Shown piece by piece: positions 1 to 9,884 of a DNA stretch of 14,092 bases; the first letter of the stretch is position 1; each line of letters starts with the position of its first letter. The position numbers and the translations under genes are program-made. The notes under the pieces are model-generated. The model worked only from the letters and a program-made list of their open reading frames with translations, did no database searches and was not told where the DNA came from. Source of the DNA: a virus (taxonomy: Duplodnaviria > Heunggongvirae > Uroviricota > Caudoviricetes); IMG/VR virus record IMGVR_UViG_3300029705_000023, positions 173,563 through 187,654 of that record. The stretch is one strand, 5' to 3'.

Positions 1-882
1 GCGCAGTTCATCCCCAGAGACCTGCTCGATTTCAGTCTGGATGCGTTACTGACATCTGCGGGCGTTCCTGTTGAGATGTACAAGGGCTCGCTGACGGTCC
101 AGTCCGCTCCTGTGGCGCTGCGTCTGTTTTCGTCCTACTGGCATTCGCTGGTTACAGACCTGAACATCATGCTCCAGTTTATTGCACGCCGGGTCAGTGA
201 GATCCTCGGCTGGGAACCGGTCGAAGCACGCTTTGCGAAGATCACCGAAGCCGATGACATCAACCGTCAGGTTCAGGCTCTCCAGCTTATGGGCACAGGT
301 GCCGTCTCGCAGACGACCGCTCTGGCTTCTGTCGGCATCGACAAGAAGGAAGAGGTCCGCCGGATCATCGAGGAACAACGCGATGAGGCGGAACAGCAGG
401 ATCGAATGCAGAAAGAGATGGAGACGACCAAACAGCTCACCGACATGATCGGAGGCGGTACGCTGAATATCCTTGGGCAGCTTCAGCAGCAACAGCAGCA
501 GGCTGCTCAGGGAGGAGGCGGAGCACCGCCTATGGGAATGCCGGGGCAGAACATGCCGGTTCCGGGCGCGTCTATGGCGGGGGCGCAGGTTGCCGGAGCC
601 AACGGGCAGGGTATGAGTTCCCTCCTGCCCGGCATGGACCCGATCTCGCAGCTCATCGCGCAGTCCGGTGTCCAGCCTACGGATTCCATTCAGGACATCT
701 ATGCCAAAGCACAGACTCTTGCGCAGCAGCTGATGATGGGTAACACTAATAGTAACCTGAGAAAACTTCAGAAGCAGGATCCGCAGATGCACATGATCGT
801 CAAGGGACTGATCGAACAGATGCGCTCCGAAGCAGCTTCTCAGGGACGTGATATGGTCCTTCAGCAGCAAGGTATGGGGTAA
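1..882 (+). CDS. 5'-truncated protein, probable phage portal protein (C-terminal part) with Q/G/M-rich linker
   Basis: Frame is open from base 1 (AQFIPRDLLDFSLDALLTSAGVPVEMYKG...). 'LLTSAGVPVEMY' resembles the portal 'I..afgVP..ll' motif, followed by a coiled-coil (KKEEVRRIIEEQRDEAEQQDRMQKE) and a low-complexity tail. The CDS is solid; the product is inferred. Confidence 0.5.
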   Translation, partial: AQFIPRDLLDFSLDALLTSAGVPVEMYKGSLTVQSAPVALRLFSSYWHSLVTDLNIMLQFIARRVSEILGWEPVEARFAKITEADDINRQVQALQLMGTGAVSQTTALASVGIDKKEEVRRIIEEQRDEAEQQDRMQKEMETTKQLTDMIGGGTLNILGQLQQQQQQAAQGGGGAPPMGMPGQNMPVPGASMAGAQVAGANGQGMSSLLPGMDPISQLIAQSGVQPTDSIQDIYAKAQTLAQQLMMGNTNSNLRKLQKQDPQMHMIVKGLIEQMRSEAASQGRDMVLQQQGMG

Positions 883-885
883 AGC

Positions 886-1638
886 ATGAAAAGTCCTCTT
901 CGTTATCCCGGCGGTAAAAGCCGGGCAGCGCAAAGTATCGTCCGGCGTTTCTTTCCAAAGTCAACTCAAGCGGTGATCTCCCCTTTTCTGGGCGGAGGCT
1001 CCGTCGAGCTGGCTTTAGCGGAGCAGGGAACCGAGGTGTTCGCCTCGGACGCCTTCCAGCCGCTGATCACTTTCTGGAACACTTTACTTCATGACCGGGA
1101 GGCTCTGGTCGAGGCAGTAAAAGCCATTCCAAAAATGACGCCGGAACTGTTCAAGTACTTCCAGAACGGGCTGCGAAACGGGCAAGTCAGCGGCGTTCTG
1201 GAAGCAGCGTGGTTCTTTGCGATCAACCGGAGTTCCTTCTCCGGCGTAACGCTCTGCGGCGGAATGTCGCCGGGCACGCCGCGGTTTACCGACTCCAGTA
1301 TTCAGCGGCTTGCATCTTTTCGGGAACCAAGGCTGTCCGTGACGCCGGAAGCGGAGGATTTTGAAACCTTTCTCAGAAAGTACCCGGACATGCCGGCCTA
1401 CTGCGATCCGCCGTACATGACCGACGGAAAACTCTACGGCGATAATGGCTCGCTCCACAAGGACTTCGACCACGAACGCCTGCGCCGAGTATTAGGAGAG
1501 AGAAGAAACTGGGTCCTCTCGTACAATGACTGCCCGGAAGTACGGGAACTGTACACGGGTTTCAAGATCCTGACTCCTGACTGGAACTACGGTATGACCG
1601 GCGGCAAGATCTCCAGTGAACTGATCATCACAGGTTAA
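886..1638 (+). CDS. dam: DNA adenine methyltransferase, Dam/D12 class (N6-adenine), orphan
   Basis: N-terminal SPLRYPGGKSR, SAM-binding motif I SPFLGGGSVE, catalytic motif IV (Y)CDPPY, then FDHERL and WVLSYND motifs typical of the family. Target sequence cannot be determined. Confidence 0.92.
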   Translation: MKSPLRYPGGKSRAAQSIVRRFFPKSTQAVISPFLGGGSVELALAEQGTEVFASDAFQPLITFWNTLLHDREALVEAVKAIPKMTPELFKYFQNGLRNGQVSGVLEAAWFFAINRSSFSGVTLCGGMSPGTPRFTDSSIQRLASFREPRLSVTPEAEDFETFLRKYPDMPAYCDPPYMTDGKLYGDNGSLHKDFDHERLRRVLGERRNWVLSYNDCPEVRELYTGFKILTPDWNYGMTGGKISSELIITG

Positions 1639-1641
1639 AAT

Positions 1642-3561
1642 ATGACAGACGCAACAGTAGGAAGCGTGGTCCTTAACGCCATGCTTCCGGAAGACATGAG
1701 AGACCCGAACCGGGTCTGGGATAAGAAAACGACGGGCAAGGTATTGACGCAGCTCGCCAAACGGCATCCGGACAAGTACAAGGAAGTCTCCAGTCAGCTC
1801 TTGAGATTCGGCTACAAATCGGCGTACCTGACTGGCGGGCAGTCGTTCACTCTGCGCGACATTTCCGAAGCGAAGAACGTGAAAGCGATCCGCGACCAGA
1901 TCAATCGTGAGACGCAGGCGATCTTCGAGAAGTGGTACAAAAAAGGGGTGCGTAGTGATGATCCGCGCGTTCAGAAGGAGATCATCGAAGCGACGATGAA
2001 GCACCATAAAACGCTGAATGAAGGGAGCCTGGCGGAACGCCGCGATCAGGACTCCCCGTTCTATCATCAGGCGGTGGGGACCGGGGCGCAGAAGCCGGGA
2101 ACGTTCAATTCCATTATCGGCGCGGACCTTCTGTACGTGGATCAGGAAGAGCGTCCGATCCCGTTCCCGGTCGTTCACGGGTATTCCCGCGGTCTGACCC
2201 CTGCCGAGTATTTCGCCGGTGCTTTCGGAGCGCGGAAAGGCTCCGTGGACCTTCAGCGGGCGACTGCCGACGCAGGCTTCCTTGCCAAGCAGCTCGTCCA
2301 GATCGCGCATCGCGAAGTCGTTACCGGTGACGACTCTCCGGATCCCTACGACGAAACCAACCCGACCGGCTACCCGGTAGACATCAGTGATCCGGATAAC
2401 GAAGGTTCCTATCTGGCACACCCGGTCGCGGGCTACAAGCGGAATACGCTCCTGACTCCGGCGATCCTCTCGGACATCAAGCGGCAGGGACATGACCGGA
2501 TCCTGGTGCGGTCCGTCATGGTAGGCGGTCCGGCAAACGGAGGTATTTACTCGTACGACGCCGGCGTTCGTGAATTCGGCGACCGTCCGGCCATCGGGGA
2601 CTTTGTAGGCATTTCGGCAGTCCAGTCCGTCTCGGAACCGATCACTCAGGCAGCCATTTCCTCAAAACACTCCGGCGGCGTGATCTCCGCCGACTCCGGC
2701 AAAGCGATCTCCGGTTTCACATACCTGAACCAGATGATCCAGGTCCCGAAGCACTTCCAGCAGGGAGCCGTGCACGCGACCGAAGACGGAAGAGTTTCCA
2801 GGATCGAAGCCCTGCCGCAGGGCGGACACAACGTGTACATTAACGGCGTGAAACATTACGTCGGACGACAGCAGGGAAAAGAAGTCGCCATTACGGTCAA
2901 GCCAGGAGATACCGTGGAGGCCGGCGACGTCATTACGGAAGGGATCCCGAACCCCGCGCAGATCGTGAAATACAAAGGGATCGGGGAAGGCAGACGCGCG
3001 TTCGTGAATCAGTTCAGCAGCGCACTGAAGAACGCAGGACAATCCGTCCACCGCCGGAATCTGGAAGTCCTCGGACGCGGACTGATCACCTACGTTCGGC
3101 TGAATGACGAGATCGGCGACTTCGCTCCGGACGATGTGCTCCCTTACGCCATGATCCAGTCCGCGTGGGAACCTCGTCCCGGAAGTATGACGCGCCCGGC
3201 AAAAGACATGGAAGGCTTCTACCTTGAAAAGCCTGTCCTCCACTACACCATCGGCACGAAACTGCGCCCCTCGGTCCTGAAGGAGCTGGAATCCTTCGGT
3301 GTAAAAGAAGTCTGCGCCCATAAAGACCCGCCGCCGTTTGAACCGGAAATGATCCGCGGCATGGCTCACGTCGCCAACGATCCGGACTGGGCGACCCGGC
3401 TCCTGGGCGGCTACCAGCAAAACTCCCTCCTCGAAGGCGCCCGCCGCGGCAGCACATCCAACACGGAAGGCACCTCCTTCGTCCCGGCCCTCGCCCTTGG
3501 CGGTGTAGACTTCGGCAGACGCGGAGCCATCGCAAAGCCGCAGAACAGAAAGTATTTCTAG
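1642..3561 (+). CDS. rpoC: DNA-directed RNA polymerase beta' subunit, C-terminal half (split, phage-type)
   Basis: Bridge helix GLTPAEYFAGAFGARKG...TADAGFLAKQLV (cf. GL..LQYFISTHGARKG..TANSGYLTRRLV); trigger loop GDFVGISAVQSVSEPITQAAISSKHSGG (cf. [28 protein letters not shown]); SBHM-like VKPGDTVEAGDVITEG; VHRRNLEVLGRGL (cf. INDKHIEVIVRQM). The catalytic NADFDGD motif is absent, so the N-terminal half is encoded elsewhere. Confidence 0.93.
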   Translation: MTDATVGSVVLNAMLPEDMRDPNRVWDKKTTGKVLTQLAKRHPDKYKEVSSQLLRFGYKSAYLTGGQSFTLRDISEAKNVKAIRDQINRETQAIFEKWYKKGVRSDDPRVQKEIIEATMKHHKTLNEGSLAERRDQDSPFYHQAVGTGAQKPGTFNSIIGADLLYVDQEERPIPFPVVHGYSRGLTPAEYFAGAFGARKGSVDLQRATADAGFLAKQLVQIAHREVVTGDDSPDPYDETNPTGYPVDISDPDNEGSYLAHPVAGYKRNTLLTPAILSDIKRQGHDRILVRSVMVGGPANGGIYSYDAGVREFGDRPAIGDFVGISAVQSVSEPITQAAISSKHSGGVISADSGKAISGFTYLNQMIQVPKHFQQGAVHATEDGRVSRIEALPQGGHNVYINGVKHYVGRQQGKEVAITVKPGDTVEAGDVITEGIPNPAQIVKYKGIGEGRRAFVNQFSSALKNAGQSVHRRNLEVLGRGLITYVRLNDEIGDFAPDDVLPYAMIQSAWEPRPGSMTRPAKDMEGFYLEKPVLHYTIGTKLRPSVLKELESFGVKEVCAHKDPPPFEPEMIRGMAHVANDPDWATRLLGGYQQNSLLEGARRGSTSNTEGTSFVPALALGGVDFGRRGAIAKPQNRKYF

Positions 3562-3570
3562 GGTAAAAGT

Positions 3571-3605
3571 CTATTGCTCAAATTTTTACAATTTTTGGGC
3601 AATAG
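3571..3605 (+). terminator. Hairpin immediately after the beta' gene, possible intrinsic terminator
   Basis: CTATTGCTCAAA (3571-3582) pairs with TTTGGGCAATAG (3594-3605) with one G-U; only a weak T-tract follows. Confidence 0.5.
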
Positions 3606-3646
3606 GCTCTTCTTATGCACAAATTTTTACAATTTTTGGGCAATAG
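3579..3646 (+). repeat. Perfect 27-bp direct repeat, period 41 bp
   Basis: CAAATTTTTACAATTTTTGGGCAATAG at 3579-3605 and 3620-3646. Confidence 0.95.
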
Positions 3647-3702
3647 CTTTAGCCTTGAGTTCCCTGACATTGTCCTGAGTCCGAAATATTTATAAAAGGC
3701 GT

Positions 3703-3981
3703 ATGAAGAAAAGTCCTCAAAACACAGAGAGAAATCAACCCTCGGACGAGAACCTGCCGCGCTTTGATTTTGGCAGGACTCTGGGTGCTGTCGTTTATCT
3801 GCTCCGCAGATTAGAAGGTCCTGTAACTCCGCAAAGGCTGATGTGCCTTCTCTACATTGCTGACCGGAAATCACTTCTGACCTTTGGCGACACGATCACC
3901 GGTCTCCTGTGGAAAGTCACTCCGGACGGTCCTTTCTCCGAAGAACTTCAGGCTTTGTTTGATGGACGTTACGGCAGTTAA
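3703..3981 (+). CDS. Panacea (DUF4065/SocA-like) antitoxin-domain protein, short or frameshifted
   Basis: AVVYLLRRLEG..TPQRLMCLLYIADRKSLLTFGDTITG..W..TPDGPFSEEL matches the Panacea pattern (A.YLL......KL.KLLY.ADR..L..YG.PITG..Y..M..GPV.S). It stops at 92 aa, shorter than usual. Confidence 0.7.
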   Translation: MKKSPQNTERNQPSDENLPRFDFGRTLGAVVYLLRRLEGPVTPQRLMCLLYIADRKSLLTFGDTITGLLWKVTPDGPFSEELQALFDGRYGS

Positions 3982-4094
3982 AGCGCAACTGGCTGCGCAG
4001 GTTTCTGGAGGCGGCCCCTGATTCAACACTCCGGCTTTTAGTCCTCCGGGTACTTGAAAGTCCTTGGGGTGTCTGTAAGATACAGCTGTTTCTG

Positions 4095-4775
4095 TTAGAC
4101 ATCTACCGCACGCGGGATAGCACACAGGTTTCCATCCGTATTTATTTGCAGGCAGTCTGACGTTCCCGGAAAGTTCTGAAATATGCGCCGGCACATATCC
4201 GGATCGTCTCTAAAAACAGAAAGCCATATACTGAAATGCGATACTATCGTGTCTTGGATCTGGTCTCGCATCGCAAGAGAATCTGCCCGATGCAGATTAT
4301 CTTTTGCCCTCTGCGCTTTACTCTGTGTTTCCATGCGTTTACTCCAGCGGGTATCTTGCCTGGACGCACCGCTGCCCGGCGTCCGATCTAGCCCAATGAG
4401 CCGGATCGTTCTGTCTACCCGTTCCTGAACATGTGTCGGCAGCTCGGTATTAGGGGTAGGTATTCCGCCTTCACCCCATATGATCGCGAGGAATGTATTG
4501 TCCCTATCTGGAAAAACATAATGAGCCGGATCTGGTACGTCAGTATCTCCTTTAATGGCATTGCACATACGGCATGCAAGAAGAATATTATCCCAATCGC
4601 AGGATATGGCAGGGTATTTGCTCTTGGGCTGAATATGTTCTACCTCGAGTTCATACTTCATACACGCAGCCTCGCAATAGGAGCAGAAGTTTCCCAGCCT
4701 GTCTATTAAGAAGTGTTTGGCATCCTGATACTTATAGAACACCTGAGGTGCAGCCCCTTTATTTACTGGACGCAT
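4095..4775 (-). CDS. HNH endonuclease, PtuB/Septu (retron-effector)-like
   Basis: Start reassigned to ATG 4775 (MRPVNKG..). FCSYCE, EVEHIQPK and WDNILLACRMCNAIKG form an HNH with a Zn ribbon; overlaps the ATPase stop by 17 bp. Confidence 0.88.
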   Translation of the reverse strand: MRPVNKGAAPQVFYKYQDAKHFLIDRLGNFCSYCEAACMKYELEVEHIQPKSKYPAISCDWDNILLACRMCNAIKGDTDVPDPAHYVFPDRDNTFLAIIWGEGGIPTPNTELPTHVQERVDRTIRLIGLDRTPGSGASRQDTRWSKRMETQSKAQRAKDNLHRADSLAMRDQIQDTIVSHFSIWLSVFRDDPDMCRRIFQNFPGTSDCLQINTDGNLCAIPRAVDV

Positions 4776-6084
4776 CGTTAGCCTCCATTGCAAGGCGTTC
4801 CATCTCGAGAAAGGCGTGATATGCCACATCCTGACTGAAAGGGGCGATCAGTGCATCCAGTTTTTGTCTTTTCTGTCTTTTTTCCTCTTCTGAAACGGCT
4901 GTAGAATGAAGCAGGGTATAATACTCTTTTGCCGTTTCATACATCTCATGATACCGCCGGCTGCGCTGCGGTATTGTTACGCCCATCAAGTCTTCTGTGA
5001 TGTCCTCGATACTGCGGCTTTCATACTCTGCAGTCGGCGCCGGCGAGGCTGTACCGGGCTTTTGTATATTTTCCATATTCTCAAGGTCTAAGACGCAGCC
5101 ATCCTGCACGGATTGTATGATAAACGGCGAGTGTGTCGTTGCGACAAACTGAACATTTGGGAACGTTTTTTGCAGGTCGCCAACGACTCGTCTCTGCCAT
5201 CTGGGGTGTAAAAACAGGTCCAGTTCATCGATGAGCACAACACCATACACCTGTGAAAGATCCTCCGTGTGCGGGTTCAGGATCGTCCATCGGCGTATAA
5301 GGTCCATAAGCATAAGGGTCATACTGCGATAGCCGTCACTCGTGTTTTCCAGCAGTTCCAGCTCTCCGGTCTCAAACTGCAGATAGTTTCCCGCATGTCC
5401 TACGTCATATTTAAGCCCGCAACAGCCGGGGATCAGTATCTGAAGCGCTTGTTTCAGGAGTCTCATTGGTCTTGTCTCCTGCCCGTTTTGTACTGTCGCC
5501 AAGGCCTGAAGACTTACCCACTCCTGAATAACTTTCAGATCCGCATTAGGATCTAAAGAACTGTGATACCCTTTGAATCGCGACGCTAATTTTCCCACCG
5601 AAAGGCGGTGTCTTTTCAGATGTTGCGCTCGCCCGGTACCGTAATAAGCCAGTAGAGGCAGAAAAACGCCCTCACCCGCCTGAACCTGGCTGCCTTGCTT
5701 TTCCAGAATCGTAAAAAGCGGATTCTTCCCGTTGTAGGTAGTACGTCCGTTGTCGGATCGTTTGGTACGCAGGATCCGGTAGGAAGTCTTCTGATAAATG
5801 ACTGCGGAACTTACAGTAACTGGATACTGCGTCTCTTCAGACGGAAGCATGGCATCCAGAAGCGAGATCTGGACACGTACTTCCTCCCGCCGAATATCTC
5901 TCGGCGCGTTAGAGCTGTGTGACAGTTTCGACTGGAAAGATCCCAGAATAACCGCGAGAGCATCTAGTATTTGTGTTTTTCCGGCGGCATTATCTCCGAT
6001 GATCGCCGTAAATTTCGGATGGAACCCGAATGTTTGATCCTCAAATTTGCGAAAGTTCTGTAATCTCAGGTTCTGAATGTACAT
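4759..6084 (-). CDS. ABC-type (AAA_21/PtuA-like) ATPase
   Basis: Start reassigned to ATG 6084 (MYIQNLRLQNFRKFED, RBS AAGGAAGAG). Walker A GDNAAGKT, signature-like TSDGYRS, Walker B/D-loop VVLIDELDLFLHPRWQ, H-loop ATTHSPFII. Confidence 0.92.
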   Translation of the reverse strand: MYIQNLRLQNFRKFEDQTFGFHPKFTAIIGDNAAGKTQILDALAVILGSFQSKLSHSSNAPRDIRREEVRVQISLLDAMLPSEETQYPVTVSSAVIYQKTSYRILRTKRSDNGRTTYNGKNPLFTILEKQGSQVQAGEGVFLPLLAYYGTGRAQHLKRHRLSVGKLASRFKGYHSSLDPNADLKVIQEWVSLQALATVQNGQETRPMRLLKQALQILIPGCCGLKYDVGHAGNYLQFETGELELLENTSDGYRSMTLMLMDLIRRWTILNPHTEDLSQVYGVVLIDELDLFLHPRWQRRVVGDLQKTFPNVQFVATTHSPFIIQSVQDGCVLDLENMENIQKPGTASPAPTAEYESRSIEDITEDLMGVTIPQRSRRYHEMYETAKEYYTLLHSTAVSEEEKRQKRQKLDALIAPFSQDVAYHAFLEMERLAMEANDASSK

Positions 6085-6163
6085 ATACTCTTCCTTTTCC
6101 GTCAACGAATCTGCTTCCGGCAGAAAACCAATACACGCGGACCGGTTTTTTATTTCGTCACAC

Positions 6164-6193
6164 TTGACAAACATTCAAAATCATTCTTATTAT
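6164..6193 (+). promoter_or_regulatory. Sigma70-like promoter, divergent and overlapping the ATPase promoter
   Basis: TTGACA (6164-6169), 18-bp spacer, TATTAT (6188-6193). Confidence 0.45.
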
Positions 6194-6216
6194 AATTCGC
6201 CGACCAAAAGTTTCAA
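6189..6216 (-). promoter_or_regulatory. Sigma70-like promoter for the ATPase-HNH operon
   Basis: On the - strand: TTGAAA (6216-6211), 16-bp spacer, TATAAT (6194-6189), about 100 bp upstream of ATG 6084. Confidence 0.55.
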
Positions 6217-6428
6217 GCAGTTTCGGTCCGAGAATAGGAATTTTTCTCCGAACATCGTCCAGATATTCCGATAGTAGAAATTCTGCACCCTATACGACAG
6301 GGGCCTCAAAAGGGACACGCTGCGCAACAGCTTGATATACAAATAAAAGCGGCGGCGGCACTTGACGCCATTCTAGGCCTGCCCCGTAAGATACCGTCGC
6401 TTTCAAAACTCTTCACATAACCCGGCGC

Positions 6429-6484
6429 AAGGCAGAAGGCTCTGTGCATCGCGCATAACCTGTCTGCCCTCTGTGCCTTTTTTT
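6429..6484 (+). terminator. Imperfect long hairpin with T-tract (terminator-like end of a possible sRNA)
   Basis: AAGGCAGAAGGC (6429-6440) pairs imperfectly with GCCCTCTGTGCCTT (6466-6479); inner stem TGTGC/GCGCA; T run to 6484. Confidence 0.45.
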
Positions 6485-6587
6485 AGAAAAAGATACTAAA
6501 ACTTTATCTACCGTTGGATATTTACTATAATTGCTATTAACCGGTAAACCCATTCTTGCTATTGTATATCTGTTCAAGGAGGAAGAC

Positions 6588-7019
6588 ATGAGTACCCGCG
6601 CCCGACGCTACACTGCTATCGAGATAGCAGAATACGTTTTAGATAAATGTGTAAGAGACGGCTGTCCAATAAGTAACCTGCATCTACAGCCAATGCTGTA
6701 CTTTCTGCAGAAAGCATTTCTCAAGGAAAAACAGTACCCTCTATTCGAAGACAAGATATACGCTGGAAAGTATGTTCCAATCATACTTCCTGTCCATGAG
6801 CGGTACTGTCTGGCGGGAGCCTACCCTTTGCTTGAGCGTTATGATGCTTATTTGCCGGAGGATGTTTGCGAGATCCTCGGTCCGGAGATTAAAAGGCTGT
6901 GCGCTATCCCCCTCCTGGACCTGATCCGCAGCGTAAAGGAGGAGCCTGCCTGGAAAAAAGCGGTACAAAGCAAGTCGCAAGAACTTCGATTACACCTAGA
7001 CGAGGAGCGTGTTTGTTGA
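6588..7019 (+). CDS. Panacea (DUF4065) domain protein with degenerate motifs
   Basis: Start reassigned to ATG 6588 (RBS AAGGAGG). YTAIEIAEYVLDKCVRDGCPISNLHLQPMLYFLQKAFL...LFEDKIYAGKYVPII matches Panacea (ISNLQLQKILYY.Q....F.D.IEAW.YGPVV); late EEPAWKKA motif (cf. E.PW). Confidence 0.8.
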   Translation: MSTRARRYTAIEIAEYVLDKCVRDGCPISNLHLQPMLYFLQKAFLKEKQYPLFEDKIYAGKYVPIILPVHERYCLAGAYPLLERYDAYLPEDVCEILGPEIKRLCAIPLLDLIRSVKEEPAWKKAVQSKSQELRLHLDEERVC

Positions 7020-7071
7020 ACATAAAATATCTCCTGTAAAAAGAGTACATGTTAATTTTGAAAGCGTATAG

Positions 7072-7108
7072 CACGGTTTCACGTTTATGCGAAACCGTGT
7101 TTCTTTTT
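7072..7108 (+). terminator. Intrinsic terminator after the second Panacea gene
   Basis: 9-bp perfect stem CACGGTTTC (7072-7080) / GAAACCGTG (7091-7099) followed by TTTCTTTTT. Confidence 0.8.
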
Positions 7109-7213
7109 AGGTGTCAAAAGTACTTAAAAATACGGGTTTTTGAGGCATATATATTGAATACAAAGAAGCTACGTGTTGTAGCCTCGAAAAATTTTTTATG
7201 AAAGGACTTAATT

Positions 7214-7624
7214 ATGTTCGACGCTACGAAAAATCACGGTTATGTTGAAATGTGGACCCCCGAAGGGGAGGTCCTCTTTGATCGGGAGGCCTTGCGGCAG
7301 ATGTTGCTGCGCCGCCTGAAGAAGGTCGGCGCAGAATTCATCCGTGCCTGGTCGCACACGCGCGGCCAGGCCGCCACCTCTCGCGGGCTTGTTGCCCGCC
7401 TGCGCGAAAGGATAGAATCTAAAGAGTTCATAACTGAATTGGCGGAATGGACCGAGGCCCGCGATAGTATTGGGGCTACCGCGTGGGGTAACCTTTCCGC
7501 GCTTGTAGCCCGATCTCCCGATGAGGAGGCGTGGATTATCGTAGACAGGTATTTGAAATTGGACTTCCTTGATCACCGAGAGGCAAATAGCCTGCAGCGG
7601 CAGGCCTGGCTGGATCAGAAGTAG
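7214..7624 (+). CDS. Hypothetical protein (136 aa, helical)
   Basis: RBS AAAGGA 7 nt upstream, own terminator downstream; no family recognised. Confidence 0.75.
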   Translation: MFDATKNHGYVEMWTPEGEVLFDREALRQMLLRRLKKVGAEFIRAWSHTRGQAATSRGLVARLRERIESKEFITELAEWTEARDSIGATAWGNLSALVARSPDEEAWIIVDRYLKLDFLDHREANSLQRQAWLDQK

Positions 7625-7626
7625 AG

Positions 7627-7657
7627 AAAAAACGCGCCGTGTGAGGGCGCGTTTTTT
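7627..7657. terminator. Bidirectional intrinsic terminator, copy 1 of a repeated module
   Basis: AAAAAACGCGCC-GTGTGAG-GGCGCGTTTTTT between convergent genes. Confidence 0.88.
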
Positions 7658-7727
7658 AGCTATTGCAGCGTTTTCCAGAAATTTTCTAAAATAAGTGTAA
7701 CAGTTCGCCGTTATATAAATAGACAGG

Positions 7728-9527
7728 TCAGAATACCTGGATCAGTCCGTCAGGGTAAATGACTTGCTGATTAGTATAGTCGAAAATAGGCCGAGGCTCT
7801 TTCGAAGGACGGCGTCCTTGCTGTTCGATCGCTTCCCGAGGCGGAGGCAAGCGGTCTGGAACCGTTCGGGAGACCGCGTATGCTGTCGCCAGTGCCTGAC
7901 GCTCCAATTTTTGGAGAAGGTTCCGTTTTTCCTGTTCGCGCGTCGGATCAATGAGCAGATCCGGGAGGTCCTGTATCTCCTTGCTGTTCAGCATTGCGAA
8001 CAGACGTGCGTCAACGGCTTTCTCGGCCTCTGGTGTCATGGGGATCCTAGCGCGAAGTCCATCCATTACAGCCTGATGCACATCCTGGACCGCGCTCTCG
8101 GTAACTATTTCGTCCGCCCAAGGGAAAGCGTGCTGGCGGACATGCAGCGTGTTCGTGACGGGTCGGAGACCTTTCTCAAGTGTATTCACAGCGCGTTCCT
8201 CAATGCCGGGACTGTGTACCGCCTTCGGGTAGGTTTGGGTCACGTCGTTGCCTTTGACGTAGTAGTTCCATGCGTCCTGAAAAGGTGTGACGGCGACGTT
8301 TCCTAATCCTCCAAGCAGTCCAGCAGTCGTGCCGGCTGCTGTCATAATAGGCTTTCCCCATGTTGCGGAATAACGGTAGTCCGGGTGACTGTAATTCGGC
8401 ATATGGCTGGAAAATCCGTCATGAAACCGGTCCTTAAGGCGGGACCAGTACATTCCCCATCCGGTCGTGTTTTTATTATCCGGGTGGTCTGGAGAACGTT
8501 CCCAGGATGTCAGGGCTCTTGCTTCCAGTTTGCGCCCAAAGTCGTCCGAAACTTCCGGGATCTTGTTGTTCTGGATCGCGTTGCCAGCCTCTTCGGCGGT
8601 CTGGTATGCACGATGAGCCGCGCCGGCCTGCGCAAATACGGAGTCGGCCTTAAACGCTGGGTCCACAACAGCAATAGGCGGGAGTGACAGGAAAGCGTTG
8701 TTCAATTCCGGTTTGGGGAACAAGGTAAACGGTTTGAACTCCGGACGATAGTATATCATTTCTCTGTTAAACGGGTGAAAGTAACGGAACAGTTCGTTGT
8801 AGCCGTCCACACCCATTTGCTTAGCATAGGGACCTGCGTTGTCGTACAGATAGCGTGCGCCCGCATTCACGAACCGCGGTGCGTTTCCTATTGCGAAGGA
8901 AAGACCGGTTGCCGCATTGTTTCGGTCTTCTCGCGTGTCGAGCTGGTCCACGGTCCACCCAATCGGCTTGTACATTTCCTGCTTCGCGTGTGCCCACGCT
9001 GGAAATTGCCGGGAATGATTGTCTCGAAGACGCTGTGCTTTCTGTGGATCGATCCAGCTTCCTGCGTAAATTCCCGGCGTTGCGAACACATCCGAGAATG
9101 CACCGAGACCAATATCACGAAGTCCGTATCCTATCGATCGGACACCGTGGTCGAACATAATGTCATCCTGTACCGCCTGCCTTTGTGAGGCGGACTGCGA
9201 GGGGGTCATACGCTCTGCCATCATCCGTTCATTCTCCTGCCAGACAGGATGATCGGGATTGTTGATGTAGTGTTCGTTAATGCCTTGATTCATAGAGTAG
9301 CCCACGTGGTGTCCCGCGGCACTAGCAGCCATATTTCCGGGAAAAGCCGCGATCTGCGTCCCCATGCGGATCGGGGCGGGATTCCAGCGGCTACCTGCAA
9401 CGAACGAGGCTGGAGCACCCAGCCCAGTACTCGCACCCATACGCTCAGATGTATACGCAGGGGATCGTGCCGGATCTTGCTGTGACTCAGTGGTCTTAGA
9501 AGCGGACTGTTTGTTGTACTTATTCAT
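7728..9527 (-). CDS. Hypothetical 599-aa Ala/Gly-rich protein (possible internal virion protein)
   Basis: Long ORF with RBS AAAGGGA; N-terminal KQS motif; no enzymatic motif recognised. Confidence 0.75.
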   Translation of the reverse strand: MNKYNKQSASKTTESQQDPARSPAYTSERMGASTGLGAPASFVAGSRWNPAPIRMGTQIAAFPGNMAASAAGHHVGYSMNQGINEHYINNPDHPVWQENERMMAERMTPSQSASQRQAVQDDIMFDHGVRSIGYGLRDIGLGAFSDVFATPGIYAGSWIDPQKAQRLRDNHSRQFPAWAHAKQEMYKPIGWTVDQLDTREDRNNAATGLSFAIGNAPRFVNAGARYLYDNAGPYAKQMGVDGYNELFRYFHPFNREMIYYRPEFKPFTLFPKPELNNAFLSLPPIAVVDPAFKADSVFAQAGAAHRAYQTAEEAGNAIQNNKIPEVSDDFGRKLEARALTSWERSPDHPDNKNTTGWGMYWSRLKDRFHDGFSSHMPNYSHPDYRYSATWGKPIMTAAGTTAGLLGGLGNVAVTPFQDAWNYYVKGNDVTQTYPKAVHSPGIEERAVNTLEKGLRPVTNTLHVRQHAFPWADEIVTESAVQDVHQAVMDGLRARIPMTPEAEKAVDARLFAMLNSKEIQDLPDLLIDPTREQEKRNLLQKLERQALATAYAVSRTVPDRLPPPREAIEQQGRRPSKEPRPIFDYTNQQVIYPDGLIQVF

Positions 9528-9611
9528 GCGTTCCCTTTAGTTAAATACGTTAGATTATGTGGCATATAACAGGATAGAGGTTAGTATACACTATATTTAA
9601 GGAGTTTTGAA

Positions 9612-9848
9612 ATGGGTTGTATGTTTGAATTGCTGATCGGGCTCATTCTTGAGCCGCTCCGCCTGTTGTTTGTTTGGCTGCTTACCCGGTTTCCAGAACA
9701 TGTGCGTAATATTATTCTAGCCATCTGCCTACTTCTGCCAGTCTTATTCTTGGGTCCTTTTTCGGTGATCTTTCTCATGGGGGTTGTCCTCTACTGGCTG
9801 CTCCGGGACAGTAAAACAGAGGAGAAACAGGAAGATAGGCAGAAGTAA
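9612..9848 (+). CDS. Small membrane protein (78 aa, 2-3 predicted TM segments, charged C-terminus)
   Basis: RBS AAGGAG; long hydrophobic stretches (FELLIGLILEPLRLLFVWLL; IILAICLLLPVLFLGPFSVIFLMGVVLYWLL) ending RDSKTEEKQEDRQK. Confidence 0.75.
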   Translation: MGCMFELLIGLILEPLRLLFVWLLTRFPEHVRNIILAICLLLPVLFLGPFSVIFLMGVVLYWLLRDSKTEEKQEDRQK

Positions 9849-9884
9849 AAAAAACGCGTCGTGTGAGGGCGCGTTTCTTTTTTT
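9847..9884. terminator. Bidirectional intrinsic terminator, copy 2 of the repeated module
   Basis: AAAAAAAACGCGTC-GTGTGAG-GGCGCGTTTCTTTTTTT between convergent genes. Confidence 0.85.

What the first reader, a model, noticed from the sequence alone, without database searches (positions are those of the whole stretch)
1642..3561. Stand-alone C-terminal half of beta': a split multisubunit phage RNA polymerase
The protein starts at TVGSVVLNAMLP, equivalent to E. coli beta' TTVGRAILWMIVP (around residue 570 from memory). It keeps the funnel, bridge helix, trigger loop, jaw and clamp C-terminus but lacks the NADFDGD catalytic half. The breakpoint is close to, but slightly upstream of, the cyanobacterial/plastid rpoC1-rpoC2 split, suggesting an independent split. 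It aligns collinearly with bacterial beta', is strongly diverged, and has no large trigger-loop insertion (SI3). It may represent a phage RNAP lineage distinct from phiKZ/AR9 enzymes.
Basis: partly seen in the sequence, partly recalled or inferred. Interest (0 to 1): 0.75.

Follow-up and report, generated by a model that had tools for sequence, protein, structure and literature searches.

The report
Back half of a two-piece phage RNA polymerase
This gene of a 188-kb animal-gut phage encodes the rear half of the beta-prime subunit of the phage's own bacterial-type RNA polymerase; the front half is fused to the beta subunit in a gene 82 kb away, a two-protein layout that is widespread in uncultured phages but that none of the papers I could search describes.

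Summary
Window 1642-3561 (+) is an intact 639-aa protein. By sequence and predicted fold it equals E. coli beta' residues 569-1364: bridge helix, trigger loop without SI3, jaw and C-terminal clamp. It starts 16-18 residues upstream of the cyanobacterial rpoC2 start.

The partner exists in the same 187,654-bp phage record. One 1461-aa protein, 82 kb upstream, is a complete beta fused head-to-tail to the beta' N-terminal half (catalytic DNDGD). The genome holds one copy of each gene, two sigma-70-family genes, and no alpha or omega Pfam match.

More than 1000 metagenomic phage proteins of each kind share this layout. No unsplit form appeared among the best 120 long relatives. Cultured relatives are Salmonella phage Arash (gp206/gp216, both abundant in virions) and Vibrio phages D69, D181 and D148. 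The family falls outside ten sampled bacterial beta' sequences. Its profile finds nothing in phiKZ and only the bridge helix in AR9.

In most relatives the two genes lie 1 kb apart. Here beta'C sits directly behind the portal gene.

This scan has found the same architecture before on other DNA. Verdict: a real, little-described variant of phage multisubunit RNA polymerases, probably virion-packaged (inferred).

The parts
1642..3561 (+). Gene for beta'C (639 aa, P0001), the C-terminal half of the beta' subunit of the phage RNA polymerase
   Evidence: Pfam Rpb1_5 3.7e-20. PDB phmmer 1.4e-30. Model superposes on E. coli beta' 569-1364. Family of more than 1200 homologues.
1642..1842 (+). Residues 1-67: N-terminal helices predicted to dock on the last ~60 residues of the beta::beta'N fusion protein, re-forming the cut beta' chain
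   Evidence: complex prediction interface residues 1-13, 24-67 of beta'C against 1398-1461 of the fusion. ipSAE 0.63 against 0.00 for the best of 3 controls.
2191..2307 (+). Bridge helix (residues 184-222, GLTPAEYFAGAFGARKG...)
   Evidence: Aligned with the bacterial bridge helix. One long helix, H187-222, in the model. G196, R198 and G200 are invariant in the family.
2605..2742 (+). Trigger loop (residues 322-367, ...SEPITQAAISSKHSGG...). No SI3 insertion. His is kept. The bacterial Met-Arg-Thr-Phe reads Ile-Ser-Ser-Lys.
   Evidence: Alignment to C. difficile gepgtqltmrtfhtgg. Two helices, H322-344 and H352-367. K342, H343, G345 and G346 are invariant.
2767..2940 (+). Beta-sandwich (SBHM / biotin-lipoyl-like) module of the jaw region, residues 376-433
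   Evidence: Weak Pfam hits to Peptidase_M23 and Biotin_lipoyl over 376-433. Strands E383-407 in the model. Aligned with bacterial beta'.
3130..3558 (+). C-terminal ~140 residues (497-639), the clamp-closing part of beta'. No sequence match to bacterial beta', but the fold is homologous.
   Evidence: HMM matches to bacterial beta' stop at positions 480-497. VIA-align carries the superposition to residue 634-637, equal to E. coli 1364.
1..882 (+). 3' part of the portal gene (whole gene G000 172450-174444, 664 aa). It heads the operon that contains beta'C.
   Evidence: 62% identical to the 659-aa protein directly upstream of beta'C in relative L125. 24.5% identical (E 2e-57) to the Arash portal gp204. 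Stop TAA, 3 nt, then the next ATG.
886..1638 (+). D12-class N6-adenine DNA methyltransferase (250 aa), wedged between the portal and beta'C genes with 3-nt gaps. Context only, not part of the polymerase.
   Evidence: Pfam MethyltransfD12 3e-26 and phrog_56. Absent from the 78%-identical relative L125, where portal abuts beta'C.

Best explanation
Window 1642-3561 encodes beta'C, one of the two polypeptides of the phage's own bacterial-type (two-barrel, multisubunit-class) DNA-dependent RNA polymerase. [quoted passage not shown] The other polypeptide (1461 aa, G000 88657-93042, outside the window) is a complete but compact beta fused without a linker to the beta' N-terminal half. That fusion carries both double-psi beta-barrels and the Mg-binding DNDGD. 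Its last ~60 residues and the first ~67 residues of beta'C are predicted to interlock, restoring a continuous beta' fold. Both beta' zinc sites are gone, and the phage genome gave no Pfam match for alpha or omega. Shown: the homology, the fold, the partner gene, its conservation, the conserved split, and the predicted interface. Inferred: the beta-beta' fusion replaces the alpha-dimer assembly platform. Also inferred: one or both phage sigma-70-family proteins provide promoter recognition. Further inferred (about 55% likely): the finished enzyme is packaged in the capsid and injected to start transcription independently of the host. This rests on the virion proteome of the relative Arash and on the position of beta'C directly behind the portal gene in a late-type operon.
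For: (1) Beta' identity.
(2) Partner in the same record: one 1461-aa frame holds Rpb2_6 (170 bits), Rpb2_3 and Rpb1_2 (76 bits). Residues 25-981 align with cyanobacterial beta 31-1056, and residues 1066-1459 with beta' 165-562. Its end maps to rpoC_TIGR position 534 and beta'C residue 3 to position 549, so the two pieces are contiguous.
(3) There is one copy of each gene in the genome.
(4) The catalytic D-x-D-G-D is kept in 118 of the 121 fusion proteins scanned and its D, D, G, D are invariant in the 32-sequence alignment. Bridge-helix and trigger-loop residues are invariant in 35 homologues.
(5) Over 1200 beta'C and over 1000 fusion homologues lie on shared 100-235 kb contigs. The two genes are adjacent in 77 of 80 IMG/VR relatives.
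(6) None of the best 120 longer homologues carries beta or beta'N domains.
(7) Complex prediction: ipSAE 0.63 against 0.00 for the best of 3 controls. That mark was reached by 58 of 80 solved complexes and 2 of 110 mismatched pairs. The runs agree in at least 96% of contacts, and partner pLDDT is at least 76. The pass may reflect memory of solved bacterial RNAPs.
(8) Arash gp206 is collinear with the fusion (30% identity over ~1540 columns), and gp216 matches the family profile at 259 bits. Gp206 had the most spectra of any Arash virion protein and gp216 the fifth most; sigma gp10 is in the virion too (PMC10585845). The window phage's sigma-like ORF is homologous to gp10 (E 2e-11).
(9) Portal and capsid proteins are homologous between this phage and Arash.
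(10) The stops and starts of the portal, methylase and beta'C genes are 3 nt apart.
(11) Strain differences fall on third codon positions in 28 of 32 cases.
Against: There is no biochemical or proteomic datum for this phage, so packaging is extrapolated from a relative with 25-30% identity. In the Arash study 88 proteins were called structural, so carry-over of abundant non-structural proteins is possible, as its authors say. In this phage the fusion gene lies among nucleotide-metabolism genes (NrdD, a radical-SAM activase, MYG1), not in the head module. That would fit a non-virion enzyme as well. The active-site context AAMDNDGD deviates from the family's (G/N)ADFDGD, and the trigger-loop Arg is Ser. 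Activity is therefore assumed, not shown. The sigma factors could serve host RNAP instead. Negative Pfam searches for alpha and omega do not exclude divergent analogues, and the record is estimated 94% complete.
Confidence: 0.85

Rival explanations
1. The same two-polypeptide phage RNA polymerase, but it is a non-virion enzyme. It is made after infection by host RNAP and used only for middle or late genes. Its presence in Arash virion preparations would be carry-over of an abundant protein.
For: The fusion gene sits among nucleotide-metabolism genes, not structural genes. The Arash authors themselves raise carry-over. There is a single RNAP set, unlike the vRNAP plus nvRNAP pairs of phiKZ/AR9.
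Against: Gp206 had the most spectra of any Arash virion protein (3516), more than the major capsid protein (1333), and gp216 had 1210. The beta'C gene is translationally coupled to the portal gene here and in the 78%-identical relative. In Arash and D69 both genes lie between portal and capsid genes. Many relatives carry cargo-like C-terminal extensions on beta'C (kinase-like AAA_18/AAA_33, NUDIX, DUF5661), as polyvalent injected proteins do (inference).
Confidence: 0.35
2. An orphan beta' fragment that does not belong to a phage polymerase. Instead it inserts into or titrates the host RNA polymerase, acting as a hijacking or inhibitory decoy.
For: It is a stand-alone half subunit. In this genome its gene is far from any other polymerase gene within the window.
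Against: A matching partner with a precisely complementary end exists in the same genome. The two genes are adjacent in 77 of 80 relatives and co-occur on the same contigs. The predicted interface is with the phage fusion protein. The protein shares only about 20% identity with bacterial beta'.
Confidence: 0.03
3. A recently captured or contaminating cellular rpoC2-type gene (cyanobacterial/plastid-like, or a host fragment) with no phage-specific role.
For: The break point is close to the cyanobacterial one.
Against: NCBIfam rpoC2_cyan scores 60.6 bits against a cut-off of 467, and rpoC 158 against 963.5. There is no SI3. The beta'N half is fused to beta rather than being a free gamma subunit. 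In the ML tree the phage family plus Arash/D69 (SH-aLRT 90) stands apart from all 10 bacterial sequences (SH-aLRT 96). The context is portal, capsid and other phage genes. The only matches in species genomes are misbinned MAG contigs.
Confidence: 0.02

Closest known systems
Salmonella phage Arash gp206 + gp216 (OQ632216; PMC10585845), and the unannotated counterparts in Vibrio phages D69/D181/D148
   Same: Same two-chain layout: a 1525/1527-aa beta::beta'N fusion plus a 606/609-aa beta'C. Homologous over full length. Homologous portal, capsid and a sigma factor. Genomes of about 180-187 kb.
   Different: Only 25-30% identity. In Arash and D69 both genes follow the portal gene within about 10 kb. 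Here only beta'C does, and the fusion gene is 82 kb away. The paper annotates the proteins simply as beta and beta' and does not describe the fusion/split. The Arash gp217 helicase next to beta'C has no tblastn match in this genome.
Virion and non-virion multisubunit RNAPs of phiKZ-like and AR9/PBS2-like jumbo phages (PMC7598289, PMC7824862)
   Same: Phage-encoded two-barrel RNAPs without alpha or omega. Beta' is cut after the catalytic barrel, at about the cyanobacterial site. One set is virion-packaged.
   Different: Their beta is cut into 2-3 pieces and never fused to beta'N. They have two paralogous sets and no sigma factors. The sequences are far more divergent: the family profile finds nothing in phiKZ and 33-35 bits in AR9.
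Cyanobacterial and plastid rpoC1 (gamma) / rpoC2 (beta') split
   Same: Beta' is divided in the same linker; the phage start is 16-18 residues upstream.
   Different: Gamma is a free protein there. SI3 is present in rpoC2. The zinc sites and alpha/omega are retained. The scores fall far below the equivalog cut-offs.
Natural rpoB-rpoC fusions of Helicobacter and Wolbachia (NCBIfam PRK09603, PRK14844)
   Same: Head-to-tail fusion of the beta C-terminus to the beta' N-terminus. These are the best NCBIfam matches of the 1461-aa partner (311 and 282 bits).
   Different: Those fusions carry the whole beta' (about 2850 aa) and work with alpha and omega. Here the fusion stops after the catalytic barrel.
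mReC, multisubunit-RNAP-encoding Caudovirales (Weinheimer and Aylward 2020, PMC7481178)
   Same: Large uncultured tailed phages with a bacterial-like RNAP that branches outside cellular clades.
   Different: mReC were selected for separate beta (1000-1487 aa) and beta' (887-1391 aa) genes, each at least 800 aa, with NADxDGD in beta'. That is a different subunit architecture. PHROGs 24349/25354, full-length beta and beta' profiles with no assigned function, are the nearest phage profiles; I did not test whether they are of mReC type.

Membership tests
Bacterial-type multisubunit RNAP beta' subunit, C-terminal half (Pfam RNA_pol_Rpb1_5) | Rpb1_5 domain above the gathering threshold | tested here: met
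   72.9 bits against 28.5
Bacterial-type multisubunit RNAP beta' subunit, C-terminal half (Pfam RNA_pol_Rpb1_5) | Bridge helix and trigger loop, collinear with beta', and the fold superposes | tested here: met
   (Z 27-30 over residues 1-637)
Bacterial-type multisubunit RNAP beta' subunit, C-terminal half (Pfam RNA_pol_Rpb1_5) | A partner carrying the two catalytic double-psi beta-barrels (DxDGD and the beta barrel) in the same genome | tested here: met
   1461-aa fusion at G000 88657-93042
Bacterial-type multisubunit RNAP beta' subunit, C-terminal half (Pfam RNA_pol_Rpb1_5) | Cellular rpoC orthology (NCBIfam equivalog cut-off) | tested here: not met
   TIGR02386 scores 158.3 bits against 963.5. 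A homologue, not a cellular orthologue.
Bacterial-type multisubunit RNAP beta' subunit, C-terminal half (Pfam RNA_pol_Rpb1_5) | Cys4 zinc sites of beta' | tested here: not met
   Beta'C has one Cys. The 'dcg...nck...cskcyg' positions of C. difficile read 'dsp...ggp...ysydag'. There is no Cys in the N-terminal beta' part of the fusion consensus, and most family members have no Cys at all.
Cyanobacterial/plastid rpoC2 | Equivalog score | tested here: not met
   TIGR02388 scores 60.6 bits against 467.4
Cyanobacterial/plastid rpoC2 | SI3 insertion in the trigger loop | tested here: not met
   The two trigger-loop helices are about 8 residues apart
Cyanobacterial/plastid rpoC2 | Free rpoC1 (gamma) partner | tested here: not met
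   The beta'N half is fused to beta
phiKZ/AR9-type jumbo-phage RNAP | Sequence membership of the beta'C family | tested here: not met
   The family HMM gives no candidate in phiKZ at E<=10 and 33-35 bits in AR9, limited to the bridge helix. The phiKZ-type PHROGs score far lower, E 1.6e-4 against 4.5e-32.
phiKZ/AR9-type jumbo-phage RNAP | Beta cut into 2-3 polypeptides; two paralogous RNAP sets; no sigma factor | tested here: not met
   Beta is intact and fused, there is one set, and two sigma-70-family ORFs are present
Arash-type two-chain phage RNAP (beta::beta'N + beta'C) | Full-length homology of both chains, with the same fusion and the same break | tested here: met
   77 of 80 metagenomic relatives carry both.
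Arash-type two-chain phage RNAP (beta::beta'N + beta'C) | Shared phage backbone (portal, capsid, sigma) | tested here: met
Arash-type two-chain phage RNAP (beta::beta'N + beta'C) | Presence of both chains in virions | not testable with these tools
   Known only for Arash (PMC10585845)
mReC phages | Separate full-length beta and beta' genes (each at least 800 aa, NADxDGD in beta') | tested here: not met
   Beta'C is 639 aa without the motif, and the motif-bearing protein is the beta fusion

The most novel reading that the evidence does not exclude
The family is a minimal, zinc-free, alpha- and omega-independent two-chain RNA polymerase. It is packaged in the capsid together with its own sigma factor and serves as the phage's only polymerase for the whole infection cycle. 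In the clade of this window the two genes have been moved into different gene modules. If those modules are expressed at different times, synthesis of beta'C from the portal operon would gate assembly of the enzyme and couple it to head filling.
Probability: 0.25. Interest if true: 0.7.

Novelty: new variant of a known kind. Interest (0 to 1): 0.55.

Why it matters
Phage multisubunit RNA polymerases (phiKZ, AR9, crAss-like, P23-45) show how far the two-barrel enzyme can be cut, fused and stripped of accessory subunits. This family adds a third solution: fuse beta to the catalytic half of beta', keep the mobile half separate, and drop both zinc sites, with no alpha or omega gene found. It is also very common: 945 clusters at 50% identity score E<=1e-30, on contigs from many habitats. 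Unlike phiKZ-type enzymes it stays close enough to bacterial RNAP to align fully, and its phages encode sigma-70-family proteins. It therefore offers a compact model for sigma-dependent initiation without the alpha platform, and for how a large polymerase is packaged and injected. Cultured members (Arash on Salmonella, D69 on Vibrio) make this directly testable. This window also shows that the two genes can be uncoupled and that the site downstream of beta'C is a variable site that here holds defence-type genes.

Tried and rejected
- A single-protein scan of IMG/VR found no relative. The alignment-based scan was needed.
- I asked whether the lineage equals the published mReC clade. Rejected: their tables list separate beta and beta' proteins.
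- The 'moraphage' paper was checked and is irrelevant, because those phages have no RNAP.
- The jumbo-phage reviews (PMC7598289, PMC7824862, PMC13282480) and three further full-text searches gave no description of a beta::beta'N + beta'C enzyme. The library is incomplete, so this is weak evidence of novelty.
- The careful ML search did not finish within the time limit, so the quick tree (SH-aLRT only) is reported. It holds no cyanobacterial, proteobacterial or actinobacterial beta', and AR9 sits on a very long branch.
- The C-terminal extensions of longer relatives were compared with this genome and with neighbouring genes. There was no match, except one extension homologous to the Arash gp217 helicase. 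Gp217 itself has no tblastn match in this genome.
- RNA-library contigs from two metatranscriptome runs of one study lie on parts of the gene at 90-97% likeness. The tool notes that this does not show transcription, so no conclusion was drawn.
- Read-through of the portal, methylase and beta'C genes (all in one frame) was considered and dropped. The 78%-identical relative has portal and beta'C in different frames.
Full report
**What is there.** The window is the last 14 kb of a 187,654-bp IMG/VR virus record, estimated 94% complete. Three genes on the + strand are packed with 3-nt gaps: the 3' part of a portal gene (1-882), a D12-class adenine methylase (886-1638) and the ORF in question (1642-3561). 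The ORF encodes 639 aa. Pfam finds RNA_pol_Rpb1_5 at 72.9 bits against a cut-off of 28.5. phmmer against PDB aligns residues 4-493 collinearly with bacterial beta' chains; the best is C. difficile 554-1056, E 1.4e-30.

An AlphaFold2 model built on 35 homologues (pLDDT 86.6, pTM 0.73) matches only bacterial beta' chains in Foldseek (E 1.7e-26). With VIA-align it superposes over residues 1-637 on E. coli beta' 569-1364 and on T. thermophilus 872-1483 (Z 27-30). The last ~140 residues have no sequence match to bacterial beta', since profile matches stop at position 480-497. They are nevertheless fold-homologous to the beta' C-terminal clamp part.

The bridge helix (184-222) and trigger loop (322-367) are conserved, and there is no SI3. 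The trigger-loop His is kept, while the bacterial M-R-T-F reads I-S-S-K. The four cysteines of the second beta' zinc site are replaced.

Residue 1-4 of the cyanobacterial rpoC2 products aligns with residues 16-18.

**The partner.** A search of the whole record found Rpb2_6 (beta) and Rpb1_2 (the beta' catalytic domain) in one 1461-aa frame at G000 88657-93042, 82 kb upstream. Residues 25-981 align with a complete cyanobacterial beta (31-1056 of 1104). Residues 1066-1459 align with beta' 165-562. Only about 85 residues lie between the two alignments, they contain no Cys, and the family consensus shows a short Gly-rich loop where bacteria have the N-terminal zinc ribbon. The fusion ends at rpoC_TIGR position 534 and beta'C begins at position 549, so the pieces are complementary.

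The Mg-binding motif reads AAMDNDGD. D-x-D-G-D is kept in 118 of the 121 fusion proteins scanned, but this exact context is unique to this phage and its near-identical cluster representative. The genome holds one copy of each gene and gave no Pfam match for alpha or omega. It also holds two sigma-70-family ORFs. One scores 46.6 bits on TIGR02937 against a cut-off of 42.9; the other has regions 3 and 4.

A complex prediction was run on the beta'N part (985-1461) with beta'C (1-520). It gave ipSAE 0.63 against 0.00 for the best of three controls. That mark was reached by 58 of 80 solved complexes and 2 of 110 mismatched pairs. The runs agree in at least 96% of contacts, and partner pLDDT is at least 76. 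The interface is formed by the last ~60 residues of the fusion and the first ~67 of beta'C. Because bacterial RNAP structures are solved, this pass shows likeness rather than proving binding.

**How general.**
- More than 1200 beta'C homologues (mostly 620-650 aa) and more than 1000 fusion homologues (1450-1500 aa, each with Rpb2_6 and Rpb1_2) were found. Contigs of identical length, up to about 235 kb, recur in both hit lists.
- An exhaustive search of 50%-identity representatives gave 945 clusters at E<=1e-30.
- In 77 of 80 IMG/VR relatives the fusion gene lies about 1 kb upstream of beta'C on the same strand. In the one locus I read (L045) two small ORFs lie between them.
- None of the best 120 homologues longer than 1120 aa carries beta or beta'N domains. 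They are intein-bearing forms, or beta'C with C-terminal extensions, so the break is fixed in the family.
- Species-representative genomes contain the gene only on misbinned MAG contigs, one of them 99% identical from goat caecum.
- Near-identical DNA occurs in animal faeces and gut metagenomes of several studies.
- Strain differences within the gene fall on third codon positions in 28 of 32 listed cases.

**Relation to known polymerases.** The only cultured relatives are Salmonella phage Arash and Vibrio phages D69, D181 and D148. Arash gp206 (1525 aa, annotated 'beta') is collinear with the fusion at 30% identity. Gp216 ('beta'') matches the family profile at 259 bits and D69 at 273 bits. 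In both phages the order is portal, a small gene, the fusion, then beta'C a few genes later, ahead of the capsid gene in Arash. Portal and capsid proteins of the window phage are homologous to those of Arash. One sigma-like ORF is homologous to Arash gp10 (E 2e-11).

The Arash paper reports gp206 as the virion protein with the most spectra. Gp216 and sigma gp10 are also present. The paper does not describe the fusion/split (PMC10585845).

The family profile finds nothing in phiKZ and only the bridge helix in AR9, and phiKZ-type PHROGs score far below cellular-type ones. A quick ML tree (48 rows, 632 columns, LG+C20) puts the 10 bacterial beta' sequences on one side (SH-aLRT 96) and the family with Arash and D69 on the other (SH-aLRT 90). 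Sampling is limited and the branches are long. The published mReC phages have separate full-length beta and beta' genes.

Reviews of jumbo-phage polymerases do not mention the layout. Earlier notes of this scan describe the same architecture in other genomes. I re-tested their main claims here.

**What is particular to this window.** The two genes are uncoupled. The fusion lies among NrdD, a radical-SAM activase and a MYG1-type exonuclease. Beta'C follows the portal gene. A 78%-identical relative has portal directly followed by beta'C, and then homologues of window genes 9883 onward. So the methylase, and the 6.3-kb stretch 3561-9883, are insertions. That stretch holds Panacea-domain ORFs, an HNH plus ABC-type (SMC/RecF-like, 'AAA_15') ATPase pair, and a 599-aa orphan. 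It also differs between samples. The capsid gene is at the other end of the record, so the head module runs across the record's ends.

**Mechanism.**
- Shown: a conserved, selected, two-chain bacterial-type polymerase core with all catalytic elements and a complementary predicted interface.
- Inferred: the covalent beta-beta'N link substitutes for the alpha-dimer assembly platform. This rests on established knowledge that the beta C-terminus and the beta' N-terminus are adjacent and that natural rpoBC fusions work.
- Inferred: the phage sigma proteins direct the enzyme.
- Inferred: it is packaged and injected, by analogy with Arash, from the gene's position behind the portal gene, and from the cargo-like extensions in relatives. 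I put packaging at about 55%.

Noticed in passing
window 3561-9883: Accessory island inserted between beta'C and the next conserved gene. It holds two short Panacea-domain ORFs (3703-3981 +, 6531-7019 +), an HNH nuclease (4095-4829 -) overlapping an SMC/RecF-like ABC-type ATPase (Pfam AAA_15/AAA_21/AAA_23) (4759-6174 -) in a Septu/PtuAB-like arrangement, and a 599-aa ORF (7728-9527 -) with no family. It is absent from the 78%-identical relative L125. Another sample's strain lacks 3901-4990 and 7727-9561.
   Followed up: partly
window 3570-3646: Tandem duplication of a 36-nt unit (period 41, 92% identical) right after the beta'C stop, at the edge of the island. One copy is missing in another sample (joint 3574->3616). 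The only other similar site in the genome has 4 mismatches, at G000 137381.
   Followed up: partly
window 886-1638: A Dam-type D12 methylase gene sits between the portal and beta'C genes with 3-nt gaps, and all three are in the same reading frame. The close relative lacks it.
   Followed up: partly
relatives P0248-P0392, P0393-P0463; L040 (1211-aa frame): Many family members carry 300-1400 extra residues after the ~620-aa beta'C. The extensions are poorly conserved and often Q/P/A-rich. Some contain DUF5661, AAA_18/AAA_33 kinase-like, NUDIX or DUF4269 domains. One (P0381) is fused to a homologue of the Arash gp217 virion helicase.
   Followed up: partly
relatives, e.g. P0010, P0014, P0016, P0292, P0131-P0133: Inteins (Hint plus LAGLIDADG) interrupt both beta'C and the fusion protein in many relatives, up to three in one protein. 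The recurrent insertion points, inferred from where the matched stretches restart, are near beta'C residues ~200-215 and ~339.
   Followed up: no
families A1 and A2: Most family members contain no cysteine at all in either chain (about 2100 residues together). The clade of this window has regained 1-6.
   Followed up: partly
window ~480-640 (portal C-terminal tail); L045 5039-5770: The portal ends in a Q/G/P/M-rich low-complexity tail. In distant relatives a 243-aa P/A/M/G-rich protein is encoded between the two polymerase genes.
   Followed up: no
G000 97239-99821 (outside the window): An 860-aa ORF near the fusion gene contains a Hint plus LAGLIDADG intein. The host protein was not identified.
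   Followed up: no
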